A DNA stretch of 16,698 nucleotides from a virus (Duplodnaviria > Heunggongvirae > Uroviricota > Caudoviricetes), in IMG/VR virus record IMGVR_UViG_3300014527_000045, positions 1 to 16,698 of that record. One strand, 5' to 3'. The position numbers and the translations under genes are program-made. Positions 1 through 14,758 of the stretch are shown one piece after another. How positions within the stretch are numbered: position 1 is the first letter of the stretch; every line of letters starts with the position of its first letter. The notes beneath the pieces were generated by a model that worked only from the letters and a program-made list of their open reading frames with translations, was not told the origin of the DNA and searched no databases.

Positions 1-789
1 GGGACCGGCAAGTTTAACAAGGGGGGCAACGAAGCCGACTTAAACCCTAACGTCGCCAACCGCAACAAAGGCCCGCGCCGTCAGCCGGAAAAGAATGTTT
101 TCACCGATGAACAGATTGAGAAGCTGGAAGAAATCTTCCATTCCTCCATGTTCAACTACCAGCGCCACTGGTGGGAAGCCGGAAAAACCAACCGCATCCG
201 CAACCTGCTGAAGTCACGCCAGATCGGCGCGACCTTCTATTTTGCCCGTGAAGCCCTGATTGACGCCCTGCTAACCGGACGTAACCAGATTTTCCTTTCC
301 GCCAGTAAGGCACAGGCCCACGTCTTTAAACAGTACATCATCGACTTCGCCAAAGAAGTGGAGGTGGAGCTGAAAGGCGATCCGATGGTGCTTCCCAACG
401 GGGCCACTCTTTACTTCCTCGGCACCAATGCCCGCACGGCCCAGAGTTACCACGGCAACCTGTATCTGGATGAATATTTCTGGATACCGAAATTCCAGGA
501 GCTGCGCAAAGTGGCTTCCGGTATGGCTATTCACAAAAAATGGCGACAAACCTATTTTTCCACGCCATCCAGCCTGACCCACAGTGCTTATCCGTTCTGG
601 TCCGGTGCGCTGTTCAACCGTGGACGCAACAAAGCCGACAAGGTGGACATCGACCTGTCCCATAGCAATCTGGCCCCCGGCCTGCTGTGCGCAGACGGGC
701 AATACCGCCAGATAGTCACCGTGGAAGATGCGGTGCGCGGCGGCTGTAACGCATGGAGTACAGCCCGGACGAATACCAGAACCTGCTGA
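1..789 (+). CDS. Phage terminase large (ATPase) subunit, P2 gpP-like, upstream segment. The frame is open from base 1, so the gene starts upstream of the window; this frame stops at 787-789
   Basis: Frame 1 is open from position 1 ([18 protein letters not shown]...), so the listed ORF at 148 is internal. The position immediately upstream of the portal gene and the size match the P2 gpP terminase. The assignment is from memory of P2 gene order, not a search. Confidence 0.75.
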
Positions 790-1463
790 TGTGCGAGTTC
801 GTGGACGATCTCGCGTCCGTGTTCCCGCTCAGCGAGCTGCAGGCGTGCATGGTGGACAGCTGGGAAGTCTGGACCGACTTTCATGCACTGGCCCTGCGCC
901 CGTTTGGCTGGCGCGAGGTGTGGATCGGTTATGACCCGGCAAAAGGTACGCAAAACGGCGACAGCGCCGGATGCGTGGTGGTGGCACCGCCAGCCGTGCC
1001 GGGCGGTAAGTTCCGCATTCTTGAGCGTCACCAGTGGCGCGGGATGGACTTCCGCGCCCAGGCTGACGCCATCAAAAAACTGACCGAACAGTACAACGTG
1101 ACCTATATCGGCATCGACTCGACGGGTGTCGGTCACGGGGTTTATGAAAACGTGAAAGCGTTTTTTCCAGCCGTCCGGGAGTTTGTCTACAACCCCAACG
1201 TTAAAAACGCCCTGGTACTCAAGGCCTACGACATTATCAGTCACCGTCGTCTGGAGTTTGACGCCGGACACACCGACATAGCGCAGTCATTTATGGCAAT
1301 CCGTCGCGCAACCACCGCCAGCGGCAACCGCCCGACCTATGAAGCAAGCCGCAGTGAAGAAGCCAGCCATGCCGATCTGGCCTGGGCAACAATGCACGCA
1401 CTGTTTAACGAACCGCTGCAGGGCGAGTCCGCCAATACCAGCAATATTGTGGAGATTTTTTGA
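753..1463 (+). CDS. Phage terminase large subunit, downstream segment in a different frame (continuation of the same gene after a frame break)
   Basis: The 236-aa ORF overlaps the upstream segment by about 40-60 nt in another frame. Its stop TGA at 1461-1463 overlaps the portal start ATG at 1463 (ATGA-type coupling). Together the two segments approach the expected size of a P2-type large terminase. Confidence 0.75.
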
Positions 1464-2520: not shown

Positions 2521-3204
2521 TTAAGGCATTCTATTCTCAAAAACATGCTTTATCGCAGTGGTAAAGCATCTATCTTTTACATTCTTTTTAAACTCATCAA
2601 AGACCATAGATCTAACATCTTCAATTTCACATCCTGATTCAATAAGCTGAGATGCACATCCGACCAGTTCCTTTATTAATGTCATGCTTAATTCTATTGC
2701 ACGTCTTCTTTCCGCCTTGACTCCTCCTGAGGACGGGTTTAAGTTAAATACTCTTAACGTAACCTCTGCCATTTTGTGTTCTTTCTCATTCAAGCCTTCT
2801 CTAATATGAACATCACCATTTTCCAAAAAATGGAAAAAAACATCTGGATTTTGTCTATCAGCTTTAATTAAATCATCATCGTTATATTTTTGCTTATCCT
2901 TATAAAACCCACACCTTTGCGGCTCACCACATGAGCCAAACAAATTAGACCACTCGAAAGTTAAATTTTTGTAATAACTTTTCCTGTAAAAATGTTCAAT
3001 ATGCCTCTCAACTTTATTTTTGCCACCACTTTTATGATGCTCTATTTTTTTCTCGCAATAAGCACATAATTTACCTTGCATTTTTATTATTTCTTCCCAT
3101 ATTTCTTTTTTATCATTTGATGATAGGGAATTCCAATCATCCCTCCTATAGTCAAATTTATTAAGAACGGAAGGCCCTGGCATTTGCCTAGATAGATATT
3201 TCAT
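2521..3204 (-). CDS. HNH-family nuclease (PtuB-like effector of the retron/Septu-type cassette)
   Basis: 227 aa with CAYCEKK...HIEHF...W.NL..SCGEPQRC, an HNH-type Cys/His arrangement. Its start at 3204 overlaps the ATPase stop at 3201-3203. AT-rich. Confidence 0.75.
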   Translation of the reverse strand: MKYLSRQMPGPSVLNKFDYRRDDWNSLSSNDKKEIWEEIIKMQGKLCAYCEKKIEHHKSGGKNKVERHIEHFYRKSYYKNLTFEWSNLFGSCGEPQRCGFYKDKQKYNDDDLIKADRQNPDVFFHFLENGDVHIREGLNEKEHKMAEVTLRVFNLNPSSGGVKAERRRAIELSMTLIKELVGCASQLIESGCEIEDVRSMVFDEFKKNVKDRCFTTAIKHVFENRMP

Positions 3205-4586
3205 TTTACATCCTTACTTCCAGAAAAGTGCTGATTTATCTTATTTTTGAACTCCAAAACAGATATAAGATCATCACACTCTTGAACTAAAGGATGGTCT
3301 AATCCGAAATGTTTAATAACTTTTTCTCTTAACAAAAGAGCCTCGTCACTGCTATAACGATTAAGCTCAACCAATTTTTTATATTCTTCAAGCCAACCAT
3401 TTTCTTTAGTAGAGGGTATAGGATCAGTTCTCATTCCATATAAAAGTGCATCCTGATTACTAACACCTTTTATTTGATAGTCGGGGTGAGACACTATCAA
3501 ATCATTAACACCATCTACTTCCACTTCCTGTAGAATACGCACTGAACGAGAGCTAACAGTGGATAAAACCTGTGGGCTATGGGTAGTAATTACAAATTGA
3601 ACATTTGGGAATGTAGATGTCAAACGCTCAATAATTGTCTGTTGCCATTGCGGATGCAAATGCAAATCAATTTCATCAATTAAAACAATCCCATATCCCA
3701 ATAGAGGATTAGATAAATTTGGATTAAGTAAAATTAAACGTCGAGCCAAATCACCAACTAAAGTAAATATAGTTTTCTCACCTTGAGACAACTGTTGAAT
3801 ATCTAATTCAACCTCTCCTTTTTTAAGGATAATCTTATAATCATCATCACCATAAACAAGCTTAATCCACTGAAATTCAGGCAAGAACTTTAGAATGGTA
3901 TTTATAACACTATCATAAAGTGATACTGCATTATTAAACTTATGTTCTCCTGATTGCAGAGATTTCATGTAGTTCAATTTTTCTTTAAGCGAAAGCTCTA
4001 AACCTTTTATAACTGTTGAATCAATATTATCAATCGCAGATAGTTGAGTTAATGTTGCTTTCAAACTCTGAATATCTGAAAATAACGCATTGATTGTCGT
4101 TTGTGACTCACTCAATTTCTCTTGTGAAGCTCTGTTATGAAGAAATACAAGCCATTGAAAAAAATCGGTAAAATCATTTCTGTCAAACTCGATTTCATCA
4201 TACACATCGAATTTTGACCATACAGTTTTAGTTTTAGCATTTTTTCTTTTCCTATCAACCCCACCGCCTATATAAGAACGCGCAATAGAATAATATGCCA
4301 TCAAAGGCAAGCTTGCATTATCAACATATTTATTCACAAGTCTATAAATACTTGCAAGTTTTTTTATCTCCAACAATTCATTATTTCTAGAATAATATGC
4401 CCCCTCTTTCGCTTTAGTAATCAAAATACTGGTATTAAAGTCCTTGAGTTTTATATTTGCATCAATTGATGCATACTCAACATCAACAGAGTTATTAACT
4501 TCATGGCTTTTAATATAAGTACCAGGCTTACTCTCCTTTTCAATATTTGATCTCAACCAACTCAAAACAATTGCTATTGCATCCAA
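3201..4586 (-). CDS. ABC-type (AAA_15/AAA_21-like, PtuA/OLD-like) ATPase; the N-terminal Walker A region is disrupted upstream of the annotated start
   Basis: Contains LSQGEKT (ABC signature-like), IVLIDEIDLHLHPQWQ (Walker B/D-loop) and VITTHSP (H-loop). The ORF as listed starts at a TTG and lacks a P-loop. Immediately upstream, in the same frame, the DNA reads VYMILNG-TAA-DGFGKSTILDAI, a Walker A motif GxxxxGKST with the stop at the first x (minus-strand codon at 4611-4613). Confidence 0.8.
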   Translation of the reverse strand: MDAIAIVLSWLRSNIEKESKPGTYIKSHEVNNSVDVEYASIDANIKLKDFNTSILITKAKEGAYYSRNNELLEIKKLASIYRLVNKYVDNASLPLMAYYSIARSYIGGGVDRKRKNAKTKTVWSKFDVYDEIEFDRNDFTDFFQWLVFLHNRASQEKLSESQTTINALFSDIQSLKATLTQLSAIDNIDSTVIKGLELSLKEKLNYMKSLQSGEHKFNNAVSLYDSVINTILKFLPEFQWIKLVYGDDDYKIILKKGEVELDIQQLSQGEKTIFTLVGDLARRLILLNPNLSNPLLGYGIVLIDEIDLHLHPQWQQTIIERLTSTFPNVQFVITTHSPQVLSTVSSRSVRILQEVEVDGVNDLIVSHPDYQIKGVSNQDALLYGMRTDPIPSTKENGWLEEYKKLVELNRYSSDEALLLREKVIKHFGLDHPLVQECDDLISVLEFKNKINQHFSGSKDVK

Positions 4587-4596
4587 AATAGTGCTT

Positions 4597-4785
4597 TTAC
4601 CGAATCCGTCTTATCCGTTTAAAATCATGTATACCTATTTTATTTAAATGAAACTTACTCTCATTTAAAGTAGATATTAGCTTTTGAAGCTCAACAGACT
4701 CCTTCAAATAATCCTCGTTTATCACATGTGATTCCAACTCTAAAAAATCAACATAGCAAGTCTCTAAATTCATTTTATTTATCAT
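4597..4785 (-). CDS. Short ORF coupled to the RT stop; probably the displaced N-terminal segment of the ATPase gene rather than an independent protein
   Basis: Its ATG overlaps the RT stop (TAATG). The 62-aa product ends ...KFHLNKIGIHDFKRIRRIR, which resembles the N-terminal strand of ABC ATPases, but it is in a different frame from the Walker A segment and overlaps it on the DNA. Confidence 0.4.
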   Translation of the reverse strand: MINKMNLETCYVDFLELESHVINEDYLKESVELQKLISTLNESKFHLNKIGIHDFKRIRRIR

Positions 4786-5720
4786 TATTTGTTTCCTTCC
4801 ATCAGGAACTTAGTTATTAACTCACAACCATATTTTTTTTGTAACCTTAATAAAAAATCACCCTCCAAATAATTTGCAAACGCAATCATCCCTTTGGTTT
4901 TATTTATTTCTTCGGAAGATAAGAGTCCCAAAGAATATTTATGAATCTTTGCAAACAGCATCCTTTTACGATCGCGACCAATTGATAAATTGCCCTGAGG
5001 TGTAAGTGTTACACCAGTCACGTGCCGATTATGAGCCATCGATGTAAAAATTGTTTTAGATTCATTGATTGATAGACCGGGAACATGGAGCGACAACATT
5101 TTTTTTACCACCTTAGGAACCCTGCACAATATATCCTTAATATTAGTTGAAAAAGTTATATCATCTGCATACCTTGAATAAGTGATACCATTGTTACGGC
5201 ACCAATCATCAAGACTCTTGTCAAAGTCATACATAACAAAATTACTAATAAATGGTGAGCTTGGCGCCCCTACACTTAATATCAACGTTGTACTTCTCTT
5301 TTTTCCCGGACGCCAAAAAAGCAAATTACGTAGGGTGTTCTCATCAAATGAATCCAATTTCAGCCCTGTGTTCTCAAGTTTCGAGAAAAATATATCAGGT
5401 TTAATTTTGTTAAAGAAGTTCTGAAAATCCATTTTAAGAATATAATTATTATCTTTATGCAACAATGCATTATCTTTAATACTTTTTTTATATTCATATG
5501 CCATTGCCTTATGATGAACAGGCAGCTTTGGCTGTAGCAAAGATACTATAAATCTCTGTACGTTTTTTAGTTCCTTTGTCGGCTGAGCTATCACCCGAAA
5601 ACCTGCGCCACGTTTAGGAATATAATAAACTTTATATTTTTTGGGGGCCTCATTTAAAAGTAATTGGAAAGCTAATCTATTATAATTAAACTTACTGATA
5701 ATTTTAGAAGTTAGTTGCAT
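4785..5720 (-). CDS. Retron-type reverse transcriptase
   Basis: 311 aa with YYIPKRGAGFRVIAQP (RT motifs 1/2), ILKMDFQNFF (motif A), GAPSSP, YSRYADDITF (YxDD catalytic motif), SINESKT (motif D) and HNRHVTGVTL (the VTG triplet typical of retron RTs). It is collinear with my recollection of the Ec86 RT. AGAGGGG lies 7 nt upstream of the ATG. Confidence 0.9.
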   Translation of the reverse strand: MQLTSKIISKFNYNRLAFQLLLNEAPKKYKVYYIPKRGAGFRVIAQPTKELKNVQRFIVSLLQPKLPVHHKAMAYEYKKSIKDNALLHKDNNYILKMDFQNFFNKIKPDIFFSKLENTGLKLDSFDENTLRNLLFWRPGKKRSTTLILSVGAPSSPFISNFVMYDFDKSLDDWCRNNGITYSRYADDITFSTNIKDILCRVPKVVKKMLSLHVPGLSINESKTIFTSMAHNRHVTGVTLTPQGNLSIGRDRKRMLFAKIHKYSLGLLSSEEINKTKGMIAFANYLEGDFLLRLQKKYGCELITKFLMEGNK

Positions 5721-5739
5721 ATAACCCCTCTTAAAACCA

Positions 5740-5950
5740 AAGCGCCATGCAACTTTACATAGCGCTTTGACTCTTCACTAAAGACAGCGAAAGACACAGA
5801 TTTCTCCTTCGCATATCTGCCCCGGGCAGGGATGCGAAGGAGAAATCTGTGTCTTTCGCAACCCTAAACCGGACAATAAATTTAAGCCTGGCTAATCACC
5901 CGGCTGGAACCAATGTTCCTACACTAAAGAGCGTAATGATTTTAATGAAC
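5740..5950 (-). ncRNA. Candidate retron msr/msd non-coding RNA region, including a long msd-like hairpin (5787-5859)
   Basis: Directly upstream of the RT on the same strand. Perfect 28-nt inverted repeat (5787-5814 pairs with 5832-5859) around a 17-nt, partly self-complementary loop. I could not find the a1/a2 inverted repeats by eye, so the boundaries are provisional. Confidence 0.45.
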
Positions 5951-5965
5951 AAATAGATATAAGGC

Positions 5966-5984
5966 AAGGCGCGCGCTCGTATCC
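5966..5984 (-). other. Putative cos (cohesive end) site of a P2/186-family phage
   Basis: The minus strand reads GGCGTGGCGGGGA at 5984-5972, matching the first 13 nt of the 19-nt 186/P2 cohesive end as I recall it (GGCGTGGCGGGGAAAGCAT / GGCGAGGCGGGGAAAGCAC). The downstream 6 nt diverge. Orientation and position (between the right-end genes and the portal 3' end) fit. Confidence 0.45.
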
Positions 5985-6033
5985 CCGCCACGCCTGCCCG
6001 CTTTATGTAGTGGTTTTCATGCACCTGCATGAT

Positions 6034-6063
6034 CTACGCAAAAGCCCGCCAGTTCTGGCGGGC
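6034..6063 (-). terminator. Putative intrinsic terminator of the tum/dinI transcript
   Basis: GC stem gcccgcc / ggcgggc (6044-6050 and 6057-6063) with a 6-nt loop, followed on the minus strand by TTTTG. Confidence 0.45.
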
Positions 6064-6198
6064 CTTAGCAAAAACGATCCTCAAACGATCATGCGATCTC
6101 ATGCGGCATAGACATGCACTACAGAGCTAACGCCTCGCAAGGGCTCGTTGTTCAACCTTGCTGACGCCAGAAACAAGTTCAGACGCCAGCAACGTTTC

Positions 6199-6432
6199 TT
6201 AATGCAGCCAGCTGTCGTCTTCCCACACCTTCTGCATAATTTTCATCACTTGTTTTCTTTCTTCGTCCAGTTGCAGTCCGGTCAGTTCCACACCGTTAGA
6301 GCTACCTTTGCGGATACGAATTACCGTTTTGGGATACAGGGGGCGCAGATTGCGGTAAAGCTCGGATTCAAGGGCGTCCAGTGTAGACTGGCTAATCTTC
6401 TGCTCTTTATCGATCATTATTTCAATGCGCAT
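6199..6432 (-). CDS. dinI: DinI-family protein (phage 186 orf97-like)
   Basis: From the internal ATG at 6432 the product is MRIEIMIDKEQ...KVWEDDSWLH (77 aa), collinear with E. coli DinI as I recall it (MRIEVTIAKT...ETWESADDWF). GAGGTGA lies upstream of this ATG. The ORF track extends further upstream, but that overlaps the preceding gene. Confidence 0.75.
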   Translation of the reverse strand: MRIEIMIDKEQKISQSTLDALESELYRNLRPLYPKTVIRIRKGSSNGVELTGLQLDEERKQVMKIMQKVWEDDSWLH

Positions 6433-6442
6433 AAAAGTCACC

Positions 6443-6631
6443 TCAGCTGATGACATCCATTGAGCGGTTGTATTCGTGGGTTCTGATTTTTGCCATGAGT
6501 TCATCTGTCAGTTCAGAAACCCACTGCAGGGCCAGCCCCTTCTCTTCATCACTACACTCACTAGCCGCTACAAGCTTAAGAAAAAAATCAATGCGCTGGA
6601 GCTTCAAAGACTCCAAAAAATAGTCCTGCAT
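6443..6631 (-). CDS. tum: Tum-like SOS-inducible antirepressor candidate (small protein upstream of dinI-like gene)
   Basis: 62-aa ORF with AGGAGG 5 nt before the ATG, immediately downstream of LexA-box-like sequence and followed by the DinI-like gene. This mirrors the phage 186 SOS operon (tum, then orf97) located between gene A and cos. The protein itself is not recognised by sequence. Confidence 0.5.
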   Translation of the reverse strand: MQDYFLESLKLQRIDFFLKLVAASECSDEEKGLALQWVSELTDELMAKIRTHEYNRSMDVIS

Positions 6632-6656
6632 CTTTCCTCCTATGACACCAAAGCAA

Positions 6657-6715
6657 TACTGTATATATAACCACTGTTTATGTTTACAGTATATAATAAT
6701 CTTACTGATGTAAAA
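6657..6715 (-). promoter_or_regulatory. LexA (SOS) box overlapping a candidate promoter for the tum/dinI operon
   Basis: Perfect CTGT-N8-ACAG at 6674-6689 (cactgtttatgtttacagta), plus an adjacent half-site CTGTATATATAA at 6659-6670. On the minus strand, TTTACA (-35-like) and TATACT (-10-like) are spaced so that the box overlaps the -10. Confidence 0.6.
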
Positions 6716-6783
6716 CGTTTTTTTACGCTCATCAGCCTGATATGCCTGGTATTATTAAGAGCACGAATTGTTAACCCGCGTAA

Positions 6784-9156
6784 TTAATACAGGTTTCGCC
6801 ACTTATCATCTTCCTGCAAACGCTGGTTCCGATAGAAGATACGTAGGCCTGCTCCTGACGGAATACTGCCGCCGCGAAGCAGTAAATCGACCTCTTTCTC
6901 GCTGCCATCAAATCCCCTGGACTTCAGTTCATACACGAGCTGCAGTCGCTGATGGTCTGTAATTCGCTGTTTGTAGTCTTTACGCCGTTTCGGTTTCACC
7001 AGGCGTAACCTTGCTGCCAGTTCCCGGCGCTCTTTTTTGCTCATACTGTGCAGGTAATCGTGCAACTCCTTGTCATCCATGCGGGTGATATCCGTTCTGG
7101 TATCTCCATCAGTTGATTTGTCTTTCCCTTGTTGGTACAAATTTTCAGCAAGGGGACAGTTATTGCCACGAGTCCAAGGGGCGCAAGCGCCCTGGTCGGC
7201 TGCCGCCTCCTGAACGTCAACGGCTTTACGAACCATTTTCCACTTCACTGCATGAGTGCAGATCTTACCCTCTGCAATGGGTGACCAGATGCCATAAATA
7301 CGAATACCGTGATCGCCATAGGCGGTCGGCTCTTCGTTAATTTCATAAGCTGTTCTGATAAGGTGATATTTGCGGGGAACCAGCACGCCGCCCTGCTTCA
7401 TGATGTAGGTGGCAAAACAGCCAGCATCAGCAGCAGCCAGGATGGCATCAAGGCGTGGGTTATCCAGTACCGGCGCACCTGCTTTTTTGTCCCCCTGCTG
7501 CCTTGCCGCCTGACCAGCCAGCAATCGCAGTTCACGGTAAGCCTGACGCCCCGGAATACCAAAGAAGCGGAATTGCTGAACACGATGCAGAGACGCCCAG
7601 GCATTAACGTATTCAGCGTTATCACGCAGGGATTTACCCGTTTCCTTGCTGATCTCACCAGCCAGACCACGCCCGTCAATGTTCTTACTGATGTATTTCG
7701 CGATGTAGCTTGTTGGCGTACCTTTGCGCGGGTTTATCAGCTCAGACTTAAAGCGTGGTCCCGTGTTATTACCCAGCTCCTCGCGGTCTTCACGAATGGC
7801 AAACTTACGCAGTAATGCAGTGATGGCGCGGCGGTCTTTTTTGCGCATAAAACACAACAGGTGCCAGTGAACTGTACCGTCATGATGCGGCTCAGCCACC
7901 CGCACGCCATACCAGCGCAATCCGGCTTTGTGCATCGCCTTACGAAATGCAGCAAACATGCCGACCAAATAATCACTGCTTTGTCTTACTGTCGCGTTGG
8001 TCCAGGTCGGGTTTGGCCTGCCGTTATTTAGCGTGGAATGGAAACGTGACGGACAGGTGATGGTGTAGAAAACGGCGCAGTCACCACGCATTTCCGCGAT
8101 AAGCTCCAGGCCTTTAACACAGGCCATCATCTCGTTGCGGCGATGCGCCGGGTTGCTGCTGCTGGCGTTTACCACATCCTCCATGTTCAGCGTGTCGCCG
8201 TCTTCGTTCACCAGTTCATGAGAACGGAAAAACTCCAGCGACTTACGGCGCTGCTCACGTTTATGCATCACGGCTTCATAGCTGACATAGGGAGATGCTT
8301 TTTTGCTGACCAGGCAGACAGCACGCAACTGCTCTTCCCGCCATTCGCAACGCATCTTCCATAATTTCCGATACCACCAGTCGGCGCACAGCATACGCGC
8401 CAGCGAACCCGGAATGAGTTCATAAGGCACAGGTTTGCGGCGGTTTCTTTTCCGGCGGAGTTGCTCAAACGCAGGCGGTATGACATCCAGTCGCAGGGTT
8501 TCTGCAGCCACCTTTTCCCATGTCTTGCGGATTTCTTCTGGCTTAACATCATCGGTGGCATACAAATCACCACAAGCTACATCAAGGCACATACTCATAT
8601 GCGCAGCTACCAGGGTGGACAGGCGTTTCACCTGATCCTGACTCATTTCAGGCAGAATCAGCAGGCCGTCCAGCCCTTCATGGCTTGCCATAAAGCGAAA
8701 AGAAGTGGATAGCTGACTGTCGCGTACATGCTCCAGCCGTTCCAGACATGGCTTAATCGTCTCACGCAAATAGCGGGAATAAGCCTTTGGCCTGCCAAGG
8801 CTGCTGAAGTATTCAATACGTTGCATCAGCGGCTTGCTGATATGGGAAGGCTGGGCATTGACGTCCGCCAGAATGACCATATCTGGATTAAAACGCTGCT
8901 GCTCATGCGCCAGCTTTGCCCGACTAATGAGCTTATCCTGCTCCATTTCGCGCTGGACAGGATCACGGGATTCATTAAAGAAATAACGCTCCCAGACCTG
9001 ATCACTCAGTACCTCGCGGCGCAGGTGTTCCTGCTCGTTATCGGCAGCGTACAGAGCGATCAGGTTTGAAAGCGCAGAAACTGAAGATTGCTCTTCTGTC
9101 TCTACGTAAGGATTGATTGCTTTTTTCTCAGCATTCCAGGAATAGCTGTAGTTCAT
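6784..9156 (-). CDS. Replication initiation protein, P2 gpA-like (rolling-circle nicking enzyme)
   Basis: 790-aa ORF whose size and position (between the early region and the right-end/cos region) match gene A of P2/186 phages. Its start overlaps the stop of the upstream gene. The plus-strand ORFs inside it are antisense artefacts. Confidence 0.85.
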
Positions 9157-12757: not shown

Positions 12758-13333
12758 GTGACCATGAATTTGGAGAAAGGCGGACGAGGCGCTATAGAGC
12801 GCATGGTAGAAGCTTATGGATTCAAAACTCGACAGGCGTTGTGCGATCATTTAGGAATCTCTAAAAGTACACTCGCTACACGCTACATGCGTGACTCATT
12901 CCCAGCAGAATGGGTAATCCAGTGCGCCCTTGAAACGGGCACCTCGCTTAATTGGCTCACAACTGGACATGGTTCAAAGCAAACTTCAGGTAATACAAAT
13001 ACGATGGAAGTTGCTAAGTATGTATTATCTGATGGTGCCTTGCGTGAAGACGGTTTTTATATTTTTGATAAGGGATTTCTACCCTCTACGTTTAAAAAAC
13101 CTTTTGTCATCACAGATAACAATTCTGAATTTATTTGTGATAAAGAATTTGATGATATACGTGATGGTAAATGGGTAATAAGTATTGATGGCGAAATAAC
13201 AATCCGCGACATTACTCGTTTACCCGGTGGAAGAATCTTCGTTGAAGGTGGAAACAGATCCTTCGAGTGCAAGATAGAAGATGTTGAAATAATTGGAAAA
13301 ATTATAAGTTTAACAATTAAGTACGTTAGGTAA
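12758..13333 (+). CDS. cI: Immunity repressor CI (phage 186 CI family)
   Basis: 191 aa; the N-terminus ...AYGFKTRQALCDHLGISKSTLATRYMRDSFPAEWVIQCALETG... matches the 186 CI HTH region as recalled (186 CI is about 192 aa). Confidence 0.75.
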   Translation: MTMNLEKGGRGAIERMVEAYGFKTRQALCDHLGISKSTLATRYMRDSFPAEWVIQCALETGTSLNWLTTGHGSKQTSGNTNTMEVAKYVLSDGALREDGFYIFDKGFLPSTFKKPFVITDNNSEFICDKEFDDIRDGKWVISIDGEITIRDITRLPGGRIFVEGGNRSFECKIEDVEIIGKIISLTIKYVR

Positions 13334-13348
13334 TACCGGGAGTAAACT

Positions 13349-13540
13349 ATGCTTGGTAAGGTATTTTTTGTGGTTTTATCATGCTCTTTGTTATTAAACC
13401 CACTAACTACCTATGCTAAAAATTATCCTTGTTCTGGGAAAAAGGGAGGTGTCTCTCACTGTACCTCCGATGGAAAGTTCGTTTGCAATGATGGAACCAT
13501 TAGTAAATCAAAAAAAATCTGTACTAAAAACTCGCGATAA
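13349..13540 (+). CDS. Small secreted cysteine-rich protein (possible moron)
   Basis: 63 aa with a signal-peptide-like N-terminus ([23 protein letters not shown]) and several Cys in the mature part. AT-rich, lying between cI and int. Confidence 0.5.
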
Positions 13541-13726
13541 TTTTTGCTTTTATATCTGCGCCTAATATAACAATGAGCCGCAGGCTAACCGCAAAAGTCA
13601 CATACTCACATAGCAAAAAATAGCCAACTTCATTATGGCTTCAGTGAGATGTATGGTCGCAAGATTTCATACATTGACACTGGTTATACATACAGTAAAA
13701 ATGCTCTCTATTGGAGGGCATTTTTT

Positions 13727-14758
13727 ATGGCAGTACGAAAACTCACCACAGGAAAATGGCTTTGCGAATGTTACCCCGCCGGACGTAGTGGGCGTCGTGT
13801 GCGTAAACAATTCGCCACCAAAGGCGAAGCACTGGCTTTTGAGCGTCACACGATGGAAGAAACCGAAGCAAAGCCCTGGCTGGGCGAATCAGTAGATCGT
13901 CGAACCCTGAAAGACGTGGTTGAGCTATGGTTCAAACTACATGGTAAATCTCTGACTGCTGGGCAGCATGTCTATGACAAATTGCTGCTGATGGTTGACG
14001 CTCTGGGCAATCCCCTTGCAACCGATCTCACATCTAAAATGTTTGCCCATTATCGAGATAAACGACTGACAGGTGAGATCTACTTCAGCGAGAAATGGAA
14101 GAAAGGGGCCAGCCCGGTCACCATTAACCTGGAGCAAAGCTATCTAAGTAGTGTTTTTAGCGAACTATCCCGCCTGGGCGAATGGTCGTATCCAAACCCA
14201 CTGGAGAACATGCGAAAATTCACCATCGCAGAAAAAGAGATGGCATGGCTTACCCATGAGCAGATTGTTGAACTGCTGGATGATTGCAAACGTCAGGACC
14301 CAATTCTGGCACTGGTAGTCAAGATATGCTTAAGCACAGGCGCACGCTGGCGAGAAGCAATAAACCTTACCCGCTCACAGGTGACCAAATACCGAATTAC
14401 CTTTGTCAGAACGAAGGGGAAGAAAAACAGAAGCATCCCTATCAGTAAAGAGCTTTACGAAGAGATCATGGCGCTCGATGGGTTCAATTTCTTCACAGAC
14501 TGCTATTTTCAATTTTTATCCGTGATGGAAAAAACGTCTATCGTGCTCCCTCGCGGTCAACTGACACACGTTCTGCGCCATACGTTTGCGGCGCATTTTA
14601 TGATGTCGGGTGGAAATATCCTTGCTTTGCAAAAAATCCTCGGACATCACGACATAAAAATGACTATGCGTTACGCACATCTAGCACCGGATCACCTGGA
14701 AACTGCATTACGGTTTAATCCGCTGGCAACACTACCAACATCAATAGCAAGTTTTTGA
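13727..14758 (+). CDS. int: Tyrosine integrase (P2/186 Int family)
   Basis: ATG at 13727 is preceded by GGAGGG; the ORF track start at 13649 is too far upstream. Product MAVRKLTTGKW..., with C-terminal HVLRHTFAAHFMMSGGNILALQKILGHHDIKMTMRYAHL carrying the R...H..R...Y catalytic signature. Confidence 0.9.
   Translation: MAVRKLTTGKWLCECYPAGRSGRRVRKQFATKGEALAFERHTMEETEAKPWLGESVDRRTLKDVVELWFKLHGKSLTAGQHVYDKLLLMVDALGNPLATDLTSKMFAHYRDKRLTGEIYFSEKWKKGASPVTINLEQSYLSSVFSELSRLGEWSYPNPLENMRKFTIAEKEMAWLTHEQIVELLDDCKRQDPILALVVKICLSTGARWREAINLTRSQVTKYRITFVRTKGKKNRSIPISKELYEEIMALDGFNFFTDCYFQFLSVMEKTSIVLPRGQLTHVLRHTFAAHFMMSGGNILALQKILGHHDIKMTMRYAHLAPDHLETALRFNPLATLPTSIASF

What the first reader, a model, noticed from the sequence alone, without database searches (positions are those of the whole stretch)
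6199..6720. LexA-box-controlled tum/dinI-like SOS module next to cos
A perfect CTGT-N8-ACAG LexA box plus an adjacent half-site overlaps a candidate -10 element. Downstream lie a 62-aa ORF with a strong ribosome-binding site and a DinI-family ORF, then an intrinsic terminator. This is the 186-type SOS induction module, meaning prophage and cassette expression could be coupled to DNA damage. Here tum and the DinI-like gene are two separate ORFs separated by a stop and a frame change.
Basis: partly seen in the sequence, partly recalled or inferred. Interest (0 to 1): 0.45.

Follow-up and report, generated by a model that had tools for sequence, protein, structure and literature searches.

The report
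Known split tumA–tumB prophage SOS switch
This is the DNA-damage (LexA-controlled) induction switch of a Fels-2/186-like prophage, a small antirepressor gene followed by a DinI-like gene, and it is an ordinary, already described module found in about a quarter of complete E. coli genomes.

Summary
On the minus strand, downstream of replication gene A, lie two LexA operators that share one base (6674-6689, perfect; 6659-6674, one degenerate half). They overlap a candidate promoter. Next come a 62-aa ORF (6631..6443), a 77-aa DinI-family ORF (6432..6199), an intrinsic terminator (6064..6040) and cos (5976-5994).

The 62-aa ORF gives no BLASTP hit to 186 Tum. A family profile does match Tum residues 3-44 (hhalign 95% probability, E 3e-8). 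The DinI-like ORF is 41% identical to Tum's C-terminal half.

Both proteins are 98-100% identical to Fels-2 STM2728 and STM2726.1. The split of tum by a stop codon is already published for Fels-2 and PSP3 (tumA/tumB). The DNA occurs in 1281 of 5426 complete E. coli genomes.

A LexA box sits upstream of every tumA relative examined, in seven lineages.

Most likely mechanism: LexA cleavage derepresses the operon, TumA inactivates the 186-type CI, and TumB modulates RecA. Direct coupling to the retron cassette is unlikely, because a strong terminator and cos intervene. This copy of the prophage carries a frameshifting 22-bp deletion in its terminase.

Verdict: correct reading, known biology, low interest.

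The parts
6709..6714 (-). candidate -35 hexamer TTTACA of the tum promoter
   Evidence: Read from the sequence. It lies 17 nt upstream of TACTGT. The annotated 186 p95 has TTCACA, 18 nt, then TACTGT. TT(T/C)ACA lies 17 nt upstream of TACTGT in L008/L009; in L006 TTCACA lies 17 nt upstream of TATACT (19 nt upstream of TACTGT).
6686..6691 (-). candidate -10 hexamer TACTGT (alternative: TATACT at 6688-6693 with a 15-nt spacer), overlapping LexA box 1
   Evidence: This is the same hexamer that is annotated as the -10 of 186 p95.
6672..6691 (.). LexA operator 1 (20-mer TACTGTAAACATAAACAGTG on the minus strand; core CTGT-N8-ACAG at 6674-6689)
   Evidence: only perfect core in the window. (19.8 bits, above every shuffle). 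(a box at the same position in seven lineages).
6657..6676 (.). LexA operator 2 (CAGTGGTTATATATACAGTA on the minus strand; core 6659-6674, sharing base 6674 with operator 1)
   Evidence: 17.3 bits. (retained in Fels-2, SC475 and 4LV2017). The architecture is the same as the ColE1 cea double operator, whose sequence was verified. The second-box 20-mer differs from ColE1's by one base here and is identical to it in Fels-2.
6636..6641 (-). Shine-Dalgarno AGGAGG of tumA
   Evidence: it ends 4 nt before the ATG at 6631.
6443..6631 (-). tumA: 62-aa homologue of the N-terminal (antirepressor) part of 186 Tum
   Evidence: It is 98% identical to Fels-2 STM2728. It is predicted to be a two-helix hairpin with pLDDT 88.
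6439..6444 (-). Shine-Dalgarno GAGGTG of tumB, overlapping the tumA stop codon TGA (6445-6443) and lying in the 3' arm of a small hairpin
   Evidence: The hairpin is weak (z -1.0). Translational coupling is inferred, not shown.
6199..6432 (-). tumB: 77-aa DinI-family protein
   Evidence: PF06183, E 6.6e-23. (41% identity to 186 Tum residues 71-145). (100% identical to Fels-2 STM2726.1, 78% to PSP3 TumB). (matches E. coli DinI, PDB 1GHH).
6155..6196 (-). stable hairpin just after the tumB stop, with no U-tract; it stands where 186 has the partial terminator t95a
   Evidence: dG -23.5 kcal/mol, z -3.1. (t95a in 186). Its function is unknown.
6040..6064 (-). intrinsic terminator of the operon (GGCCCGCCAG/CUGGCGGGCU, then UUUU)
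   Evidence: dG -24.6 kcal/mol, z -5.1, none of 200 shuffles as stable. It is the positional analogue of 186 t95b.
5976..5994 (.). cos cohesive-end site GGCGTGGCGGGGATACGAG (minus-strand reading)
   Evidence: 15 of 19 bases match the annotated 186 cos, and the flanks are conserved.
12758..13333 (+). 186-type CI immunity repressor, the inferred target of TumA
   Evidence: 32% identity over 175 aa to 186 CI, E 8e-38. (repressor PHROGs). (TumA type tracks the CI N-terminal domain).

Best explanation
This is the SOS operon of a Fels-2/186-like (P2-family) prophage, in its split tumA-tumB form.

In an undamaged cell, LexA dimers occupy two operators that share one base and cover the -10 region and transcription start of the promoter. 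The operon is silent.

DNA damage activates RecA, LexA cleaves itself, and the operon is transcribed.

TumA is a 62-aa helical hairpin. It binds the prophage's non-cleavable 186-type CI repressor, probably at its N-terminal DNA-binding domain. This removes CI from its operators and opens the lytic promoter.

TumB is a DinI-family protein made from the same mRNA, probably by translational coupling. It acts on RecA filaments and tunes the strength or duration of the SOS signal.

Transcription ends at a strong terminator about 45 bp before cos.

Shown here: the sequence features, the homologies and their conservation. Inferred from 186, PSP3 and Fels-2: LexA binding, the TumA-CI interaction, the TumB-RecA interaction and translational coupling.
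For: - LexA sites: the two operators score 19.8 and 17.3 bits, against an average shuffle maximum of 10.5 bits.
- In about 90 kb of related phage DNA, matrix hits of 14 bits or more occur only upstream of tum(A) and, in some phages, upstream of int.
- A high-scoring box lies 20-45 nt upstream of the tumA start in 186, PSP3, Fels-2 and four further lineages. TumA in those lineages is only 35-52% identical to this one.
- Homology: the TumA family profile matches 186 Tum residues 3-44 with 95.1% probability and E 3.2e-8. PHROG hits are reciprocal. TumB is 41% identical to the Tum C-half and matches Pfam DinI.
- Context: the module lies between gene A and cos, as in 186, where p95, the LexA site, tum and t95a/b are annotated.
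- Target: CI is 186-type, and no peptidase family was among its family hits.
- Identity with a studied system: the DNA is 97.7% identical to Fels-2. The proteins are 98% and 100% identical.
- Literature: PMC3121763 states that Tum binds CI and blocks operator binding. It states that Fels-2 and PSP3 have tum split by a stop codon, and that in PSP3 the upstream gene is the antirepressor and the downstream gene the DinI homologue. It cites Bunny et al. 2002, whose title reports that a lexA null is lethal because of Fels-2.
- Division of labour: some lineages carry tumA alone, without a DinI gene. TumB is conserved (78% to PSP3) where TumA is not (about 22%). This fits TumA tracking the phage-specific repressor and TumB tracking host RecA.
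Against: - No experiment on this locus is available.
- TumA-Tum homology is visible only with profiles (negative). The match to PSP3 TumA, the one homologue reported to have antirepressor activity, is weak (E 3e-3, 10% probability).
- The weight matrix was built from operators recalled from memory.
- The promoter scan tool did not call this promoter. The -10 TACTGT matches the consensus poorly.
- In this copy the terminase gene carries a 22-bp frameshifting deletion. The switch may therefore no longer lead to phage production.
Confidence: 0.85

Rival explanations
1. The operon is a LexA-controlled host-benefit 'moron'. The DinI-like protein modulates the host SOS response, and the 62-aa protein has a role unrelated to prophage induction.
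For: - TumA has no Pfam or NCBIfam family and is annotated as hypothetical.
- Its similarity to PSP3 TumA is weak.
- Prophage dinI paralogues are common.
Against: - Profile homology to the Tum N-domain.
- tumA occurs with a LexA box but without any DinI gene in several lineages, so tumA is the conserved core.
- TumA type tracks the type of the CI N-terminal domain.
- Published PSP3 and Fels-2 data.
Confidence: 0.06
2. The switch is intact, but in this prophage it is a relic. SOS derepression gives at most abortive induction (excision, replication or killing) and no virions.
For: - Compared with the closest complete genome (99.1% identity), the window has a 22-bp deletion in the terminase gene. 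The deletion shifts the frame after ...AVRGGCN and removes the nuclease domain.
- A deletion of about 49 bp also disrupts the retron ATPase gene ptuA.
Against: - The deletions could be assembly errors.
- The operon, CI, int and gene A all have intact reading frames.
- This concerns the fate of this copy, not what the module is.
Confidence: 0.45
3. SOS-induced transcription from the tum promoter reads through into the retron cassette across cos, so the defence cassette is directly damage-inducible.
For: - The orientation is the same, and the cassette begins about 80 bp beyond cos.
- In 186 the first terminator after tum is only partial.
Against: - A strong terminator stands at 6064..6040.
- The cassette has its own promoter-like site, from 5967 to 5939.
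- In relatives the space beyond cos holds unrelated cargo, so no co-evolved transcriptional unit is expected.
Confidence: 0.1
4. The LexA-like sequences are chance matches in an AT-rich intergenic region.
For: A perfect CTGT-N8-ACAG occurs at least once in 27 of 200 shuffles of the window.
Against: - The 20-mer score exceeds every shuffle.
- Two sites lie in a fixed register.
- The position is conserved across seven lineages, and substitutions between relatives fall only in the N8 spacers.
Confidence: 0.02

Closest known systems
Fels-2 (Salmonella LT2) STM2728 / STM2726.1 operon
   Same: The DNA is 97.7% identical over the aligned parts. TumA is 98% and TumB 100% identical. The double LexA operator is the same, and so is the position between gene A and cos.
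   Different: Fels-2 has an orf97 homologue (STM2726) after the DinI gene, which is missing here. The CI repressors are only 38% identical overall; over the region compared the N-terminal domains are 70% identical. The cargo next to cos differs.
Coliphage 186 SOS operon (p95-tum-orf97)
   Same: A LexA operator overlaps the -10 TACTGT. There is a Tum N-domain homologue and a DinI-like part. The module lies next to cos and the CI is 186-type.
   Different: In 186 the two parts are fused in one 146-aa protein, with internal starts that also give the DinI-like part alone. It has a single near-consensus LexA box (27.2 bits). orf97 is present. The TumA part is only about 20% identical.
PSP3 tumA / tumB
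   Same: The split two-gene arrangement is annotated as such. TumB is 78% identical. A LexA box lies upstream.
   Different: TumA is about 22% identical and the profile match is weak. There is a single LexA box. The gap between the genes is 3 nt, against 10 nt here.
Gifsy-1/2 dinI-gfoA/gftA operons (Salmonella)
   Same: A LexA-repressed operon pairs a DinI homologue with a small antirepressor that inactivates a non-cleavable repressor (PMC3121763).
   Different: The gene order is reversed (dinI first). The prophages are lambdoid. The antirepressors were not compared here.
Colicin E1 (cea) double SOS operator
   Same: Two 16-bp LexA cores share one base, and the second core has a GTGG/CCAC half-site. 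The two 35-nt operators are 29 of 35 identical. The second-box 20-mer differs from ColE1's by one base here and is identical to it in Fels-2.
   Different: It controls a toxin gene on a plasmid and there is no homology outside the operator. The consequence usually given for colicins, tight repression and late induction, is my own knowledge and was not tested here.

Membership tests
186-type prophage SOS operon | LexA operator overlapping the promoter immediately upstream of tum | tested here: met
   Two operators lie at 6657-6691 and overlap the candidate -10. The placement is the same as the annotated 186 p95/LexA site.
186-type prophage SOS operon | Protein homologous to the N-terminal (antirepressor) part of Tum | tested here: met
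   BLASTP is negative. PHROG hits are reciprocal. hhalign gives 95.1% probability and E 3.2e-8 over residues 3-44.
186-type prophage SOS operon | DinI-like part homologous to the Tum C-terminal half | tested here: met
   41% identity, E 3e-24; PF06183.
186-type prophage SOS operon | Location between replication gene A and cos in a P2/186-family genome | tested here: met
186-type prophage SOS operon | Cognate 186-type CI repressor with no self-cleaving peptidase domain | tested here: met
   (E 8e-38 to 186 CI). In one search its hits were repressor families and families of unknown function, and none was a peptidase family. Pfam was not run on this protein.
186-type prophage SOS operon | Transcription repressed by LexA and induced by DNA damage; Tum relieves CI repression | not testable with these tools
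   The only support is by analogy with 186, PSP3 and Fels-2, through PMC3121763. Bunny et al. 2002 could not be read.
186-type prophage SOS operon | orf97 downstream of tum (present in 186 and Fels-2; not needed for induction) | tested here: not met
   No ORF lies between 6199 and the terminator. The alignment to Fels-2 breaks into two pieces around its orf97 homologue. This is an accessory feature, and it is also absent in PSP3.
Split tumA/tumB form (Fels-2, PSP3) | Stop codon between the antirepressor part and the DinI part, with a separate start and ribosome-binding site for the second | tested here: met
   TGA is at 6445-6443, GAGGTG at 6444-6439 and ATG at 6432, in a different frame.
DinI family (PF06183) | Match above the Pfam gathering score over the full domain | tested here: met
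   81.3 bits against a cut-off of 24.2, covering profile positions 1-63 of 63.
Host DinI orthologue (NCBIfam NF007893 equivalog) | Score above the equivalog cut-off | tested here: not met
   42.7 bits against a cut-off of 111. This is a phage paralogue, not the chromosomal dinI.
Colicin-type tandem overlapping SOS boxes | Two LexA cores sharing one base pair, the second with one degenerate half-site | tested here: met
Colicin-type tandem overlapping SOS boxes | Cooperative occupancy by two LexA dimers, giving delayed induction | not testable with these tools
   This would need binding or reporter experiments.

The most novel reading that the evidence does not exclude
One TumA sequence, 98-100% identical across phages, is paired with CI repressors of several immunity types. 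Those repressors share only their N-terminal DNA-binding domain (68-78% identity) and have very different C-terminal domains (25-42%). In this lineage int also carries its own LexA-operator promoter.

Together these would make a two-promoter prophage SOS regulon. Its antirepressor would recognise the conserved CI N-domain, and could therefore cross-induce co-resident P2-family prophages of different immunity.
Probability: 0.3. Interest if true: 0.4.

Novelty: already known. Interest (0 to 1): 0.12.

Why it matters
It matters little as a discovery. The module, its LexA control and its split form have been described for 186, PSP3 and Fels-2, and this copy is nearly identical to the Fels-2 one.

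There are two practical points.
- The 62-aa antirepressor homologue has no Pfam or NCBIfam model. It is annotated as 'hypothetical protein', or wrongly as 'levan regulatory protein', in hundreds of genomes and phage records. The profile link to Tum shown here could support a proper name for it.
- The presence of this module predicts that intact relatives of this retron-carrying prophage are SOS-inducible. This copy, however, looks unable to package DNA.

Tried and rejected
- Pairwise BLASTP of the 62-aa ORF against 186 Tum found nothing. Profiles were needed.
- hhalign against PSP3 TumA alone was weak (E 3e-3), so it is not used as evidence.
- Pfam and NCBIfam have no family for TumA.
- A PDB sequence search with the TumA profile gave no hit.
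- Foldseek of the TumA model against the PDB gave only generic helical hairpins, all with E above 2, so the fold says nothing about function.
- The word-indexed homologue search returned only close relatives, all above 80% identity. The exhaustive representative search was needed to get diversity.
- The promoter scan did not call the tum promoter. The terminator scan missed the real terminator and flagged only the small hairpin at the tumA/tumB junction.
- Rfam found nothing in the window, not even the retron RNA.
- A literature search for tumA/tumB/PSP3 returned only noise. Bunny et al. 2002 is not in the held library. A search for LexA-controlled phage integrase promoters found nothing specific.
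- I considered direct SOS control of the retron cassette and rejected it as the main reading. The terminator, cos and a separate promoter-like site argue against it.

Full report
**What the window is**

The window is part of a P2/186-family prophage, read so that the early genes lie on the minus strand. Its gene content is as follows.
- Replication gene A, 9156..6784 (Pfam Phage_GPA, E 8e-127).
- The module under study, 6720..6040.
- cos, 5976-5994.
- A retron of the Ec78 type: reverse transcriptase 5720..4785, ATPase, and HNH nuclease 3204..2521.
- Portal and terminase genes on the plus strand.
- Further right, the immunity region: cox/apl-like gene, cII, a 186-type cI at 12758..13333, and int.

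**Check of the observation**

- LexA operator 1. CTGTTTATGTTTACAG at 6674-6689 is the only perfect CTGT-N8-ACAG in the window. The bare 16-mer is not rare: 27 of 200 shuffles hold at least one.
- I built a 20-position weight matrix from 25 E. coli LexA operators. These were recalled from the literature, so the matrix rests on my own knowledge. On it the site scores 19.8 bits.
- LexA operator 2. The neighbouring 'half-site' is a second operator at 6657-6676 and scores 17.3 bits.
- For comparison, the next unrelated site in the window scores 10.5 bits. The maximum over 200 shuffles averaged 10.5 bits (sd 2.5) and never exceeded 18.6.
- The two 16-bp cores share base 6674.
- Read on the minus strand, the 35-nt element is TACTGTAAACATAAACAGTGGTTATATATACAGTA. 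The colicin E1 operator is TGCTGTATATAAAACCAGTGGTTATATGTACAGTA. I recalled that sequence and then verified it as a 100% match directly upstream of cea on ColE1 plasmids. The two elements have the same architecture and 29 of 35 identical bases.
- Candidate promoter. TTTACA (6714..6709), 17 nt, then TACTGT (6691..6686). This places the -10 inside operator 1, exactly as in the annotated p95 of phage 186 (TTCACA, 18 nt, TACTGT, with the LexA site starting at the -10).
- The 62-aa ORF runs 6631..6443 and has AGGAGG 4 nt before its ATG.
- The DinI-family ORF runs 6432..6199 (PF06183, E 6.6e-23). It is in another frame. Its GAGGTG ribosome-binding site overlaps the stop codon of the first ORF.
- A GC-rich hairpin followed by UUUU at 6064..6040 is a convincing terminator (dG -24.6 kcal/mol, z -5.1).
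- cos (GGCGTGGCGGGGATACGAG) matches the annotated 186 cos in 15 of 19 bases, with conserved flanks.

**What it is**

The C-terminal half of 186 Tum (residues 71-145) is 41% identical to the DinI-like ORF (E 3e-24).

The 62-aa ORF gives no BLASTP alignment to Tum. The link appears once families are used.
- The ORF hits phrog_698 (E 4e-38), phrog_8554 (2e-8) and phrog_1993 (2e-3).
- Tum residues 1-69 hit the same three families in the opposite order of strength (2e-23 for phrog_1993, 3e-12 for phrog_8554, 6e-6 for phrog_698), over matching positions.
- An exhaustive search of 1.8 billion representative proteins gave 66 relatives, down to 36% identity.
- A 30-sequence alignment of these aligns to Tum residues 3-44 with 95.1% probability and E 3.2e-8.

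The family consensus (ES..LQRI.L..RLVA...CS..DK.LAL.W..EL) can be read directly against Tum (EHVMIERVEMIARLTAEGTCQERDREIALNLIAEI). The 62-aa ORF is therefore a distant homologue of the Tum N-terminal part.

**It is a known arrangement**

- The whole region is 97.7% identical to Fels-2.
- The 62-aa protein differs from Fels-2 STM2728 by one residue.
- The DinI-like protein is identical to STM2726.1.
- PSP3 annotates the same two genes as tumA and tumB.
- Lemire et al. 2011 (PMC3121763) state three relevant things. Tum looks like an antirepressor fused to DinI. [quoted passage not shown] - The same paper cites Bunny et al. 2002, whose title reports a lethal lexA-null phenotype caused by the Fels-2 prophage. 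I could not read that paper.
- The DNA occurs in 1281 of 5426 complete E. coli genomes and in 86 phage records.

**Comparative support for function**

I fetched loci for four divergent TumA relatives (35-52% identity to this one), and added 186, PSP3 and Fels-2.
- In all ten loci, representing seven lineages, the weight matrix finds a site of 21-29 bits, 20-45 nt upstream of the tumA start, and no site elsewhere in the locus; Fels-2 also keeps the second, overlapping box there (14.8 bits).
- Across about 90 kb of related DNA, hits of 14 bits or more occur only upstream of tum(A) or upstream of int.
- Between this window and its closest complete genome, the substitutions in the operator fall in the N8 spacers only.
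- Three lineages have tumA with its LexA box but no DinI gene. TumA is therefore the conserved core and TumB is an accessory.
- TumB is well conserved (78% to PSP3) where TumA is not (about 22%).

**Hint on the target of TumA**

Phages whose TumA is 98-100% identical to this one carry CI repressors that differ strongly from the window's CI. The table gives identity to the window's CI for the N-terminal domain (residues 10-72) and the C-terminal domain (residues 86-188). TumA identities come, CI identities.

| Phage | TumA identity | CI N-domain | CI C-domain |
|---|---|---|---|
| KP12 | 100% | 78% | 42% |
| Kp4874-1 | 100% | 76% | 38% |
| Kp4849-2 | 100% | 76% | 32% |
| Cartapus | 100% | 68% | 31% |
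| Fels-2 | 98% | 70% | 25% |
| PSP3 | about 22% | 48% | 28% |
| 186 | about 21% | 41% | 29% |

TumA type thus follows the CI DNA-binding domain and not the oligomerisation domain. The sample is small and the phages are related, so this is a lead and not a result.

TumA is predicted to be a two-helix hairpin (pLDDT 88). It has no informative structural neighbour.

**Mechanism (best explanation, confidence 0.85)**

1. LexA occupies the double operator and blocks the promoter.
2. After DNA damage, LexA is cleaved and tumA-tumB are transcribed.
3. TumA inactivates the non-cleavable CI.
4. TumB, like DinI, acts on RecA filaments.
5. Transcription stops before cos.

The double operator is specific to the Fels-2-like lineage; 186 and PSP3 have one near-consensus box. 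By analogy with colicin promoters it would give tighter repression and later induction. That analogy is inference.

**The cargo cassette**

The retron lies across cos from the operon. It sits behind the terminator and has its own promoter-like site. Direct damage control of the cassette is therefore unlikely (about 0.1). Indirect coupling through prophage replication remains possible.

**State of this copy**

Compared with the closest complete genome (E. coli SC475, 99.1% identity), the window differs in three places.
- A 22-bp deletion in the terminase gene. It shifts the frame after ...AVRGGCN and removes the nuclease domain.
- A deletion of about 49 bp in the retron ATPase gene.
- An in-frame 6-bp insertion in the portal gene.

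If these are real, the switch is intact but the prophage cannot package DNA.

**Verdict**

The thing is ordinary and already described. Interest is 0.12.

Noticed in passing
window 13674-13729 (+): The best-scoring LexA box in the whole window is not at tum. It is CACTGGTTATACATACAGTA at 13678-13697 (22.9 bits). It sits in the spacer of a near-consensus promoter (TTGACA, 16-17 nt, TAAAAA/T) just upstream of the true integrase start (ATG at 13727). The box is kept in phages 813R9 and 4LV2017, where the flanking DNA differs. It is absent in Fels-2 and 186, and in those two phages and Cartapus int directly abuts cI. So int seems to have its own SOS-controlled promoter where cargo separates it from cI.
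   Followed up: partly
window ~749/750, within the terminase gene (1..1463, +): There is a 22-bp deletion relative to the closest genome (SC475). It frameshifts the large terminase after ...AVRGGCN and splits it into two ORFs (148..789 and 753..1463). The prophage is probably unable to package DNA, unless this is an assembly error.
   Followed up: yes
window ~4609, within the retron ATPase gene (4785..3201, -): There is a deletion of about 49 bp relative to SC475, where ptuA is 544 aa and starts immediately after the reverse transcriptase gene. Here only a 461-aa ORF with a TTG start remains, 199 bp downstream of the reverse transcriptase gene. The Ec78-type retron effector gene looks disrupted.
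   Followed up: partly
window 2521-5900 (-): An Ec78-type retron cassette (RNA region about 5900-5730, reverse transcriptase, PtuA-like ATPase, PtuB HNH nuclease) fills the space between cos and the portal gene. Relatives carry unrelated cargo there. Rfam did not recognise the retron RNA.
   Followed up: partly
window 12758-13333 (+) compared with phage records: No phage CI in the collection is more than 55.5% identical to this CI, yet the TumA protein is 100% identical in many of those phages. TumA type follows the CI N-terminal domain (68-78% identity) and not the C-terminal domain (25-42%).
   Followed up: partly
window 13349-13540 (+): A 63-aa ORF with a signal-peptide-like N-terminus lies between cI and int. 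It matches NCBIfam NF007463 (PRK10040 family, 'hypothetical protein'; E 4e-34, above the cut-off). It is probably a small secreted or lipoprotein moron.
   Followed up: no
window 6155-6196 (-): A stable hairpin (dG -23.5 kcal/mol, z -3.1) with no U-tract follows the tumB stop directly. It stands where 186 has the partial terminator t95a and where Fels-2 continues with an orf97 homologue that is missing here.
   Followed up: no
window 6700-6737 (-): A moderate hairpin (dG -12.6 kcal/mol, z -3.2) lies between the stop of gene A and the tum promoter. Its 3' arm contains the candidate -35. It may insulate the SOS promoter from early-operon read-through.
   Followed up: no
TumA homologues in public records: The 62-aa protein is annotated as 'hypothetical protein' in RefSeq E. 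coli genomes. In some phage and UniRef records it is called 'levan regulatory (domain) protein', which looks like a mis-annotation.
   Followed up: no
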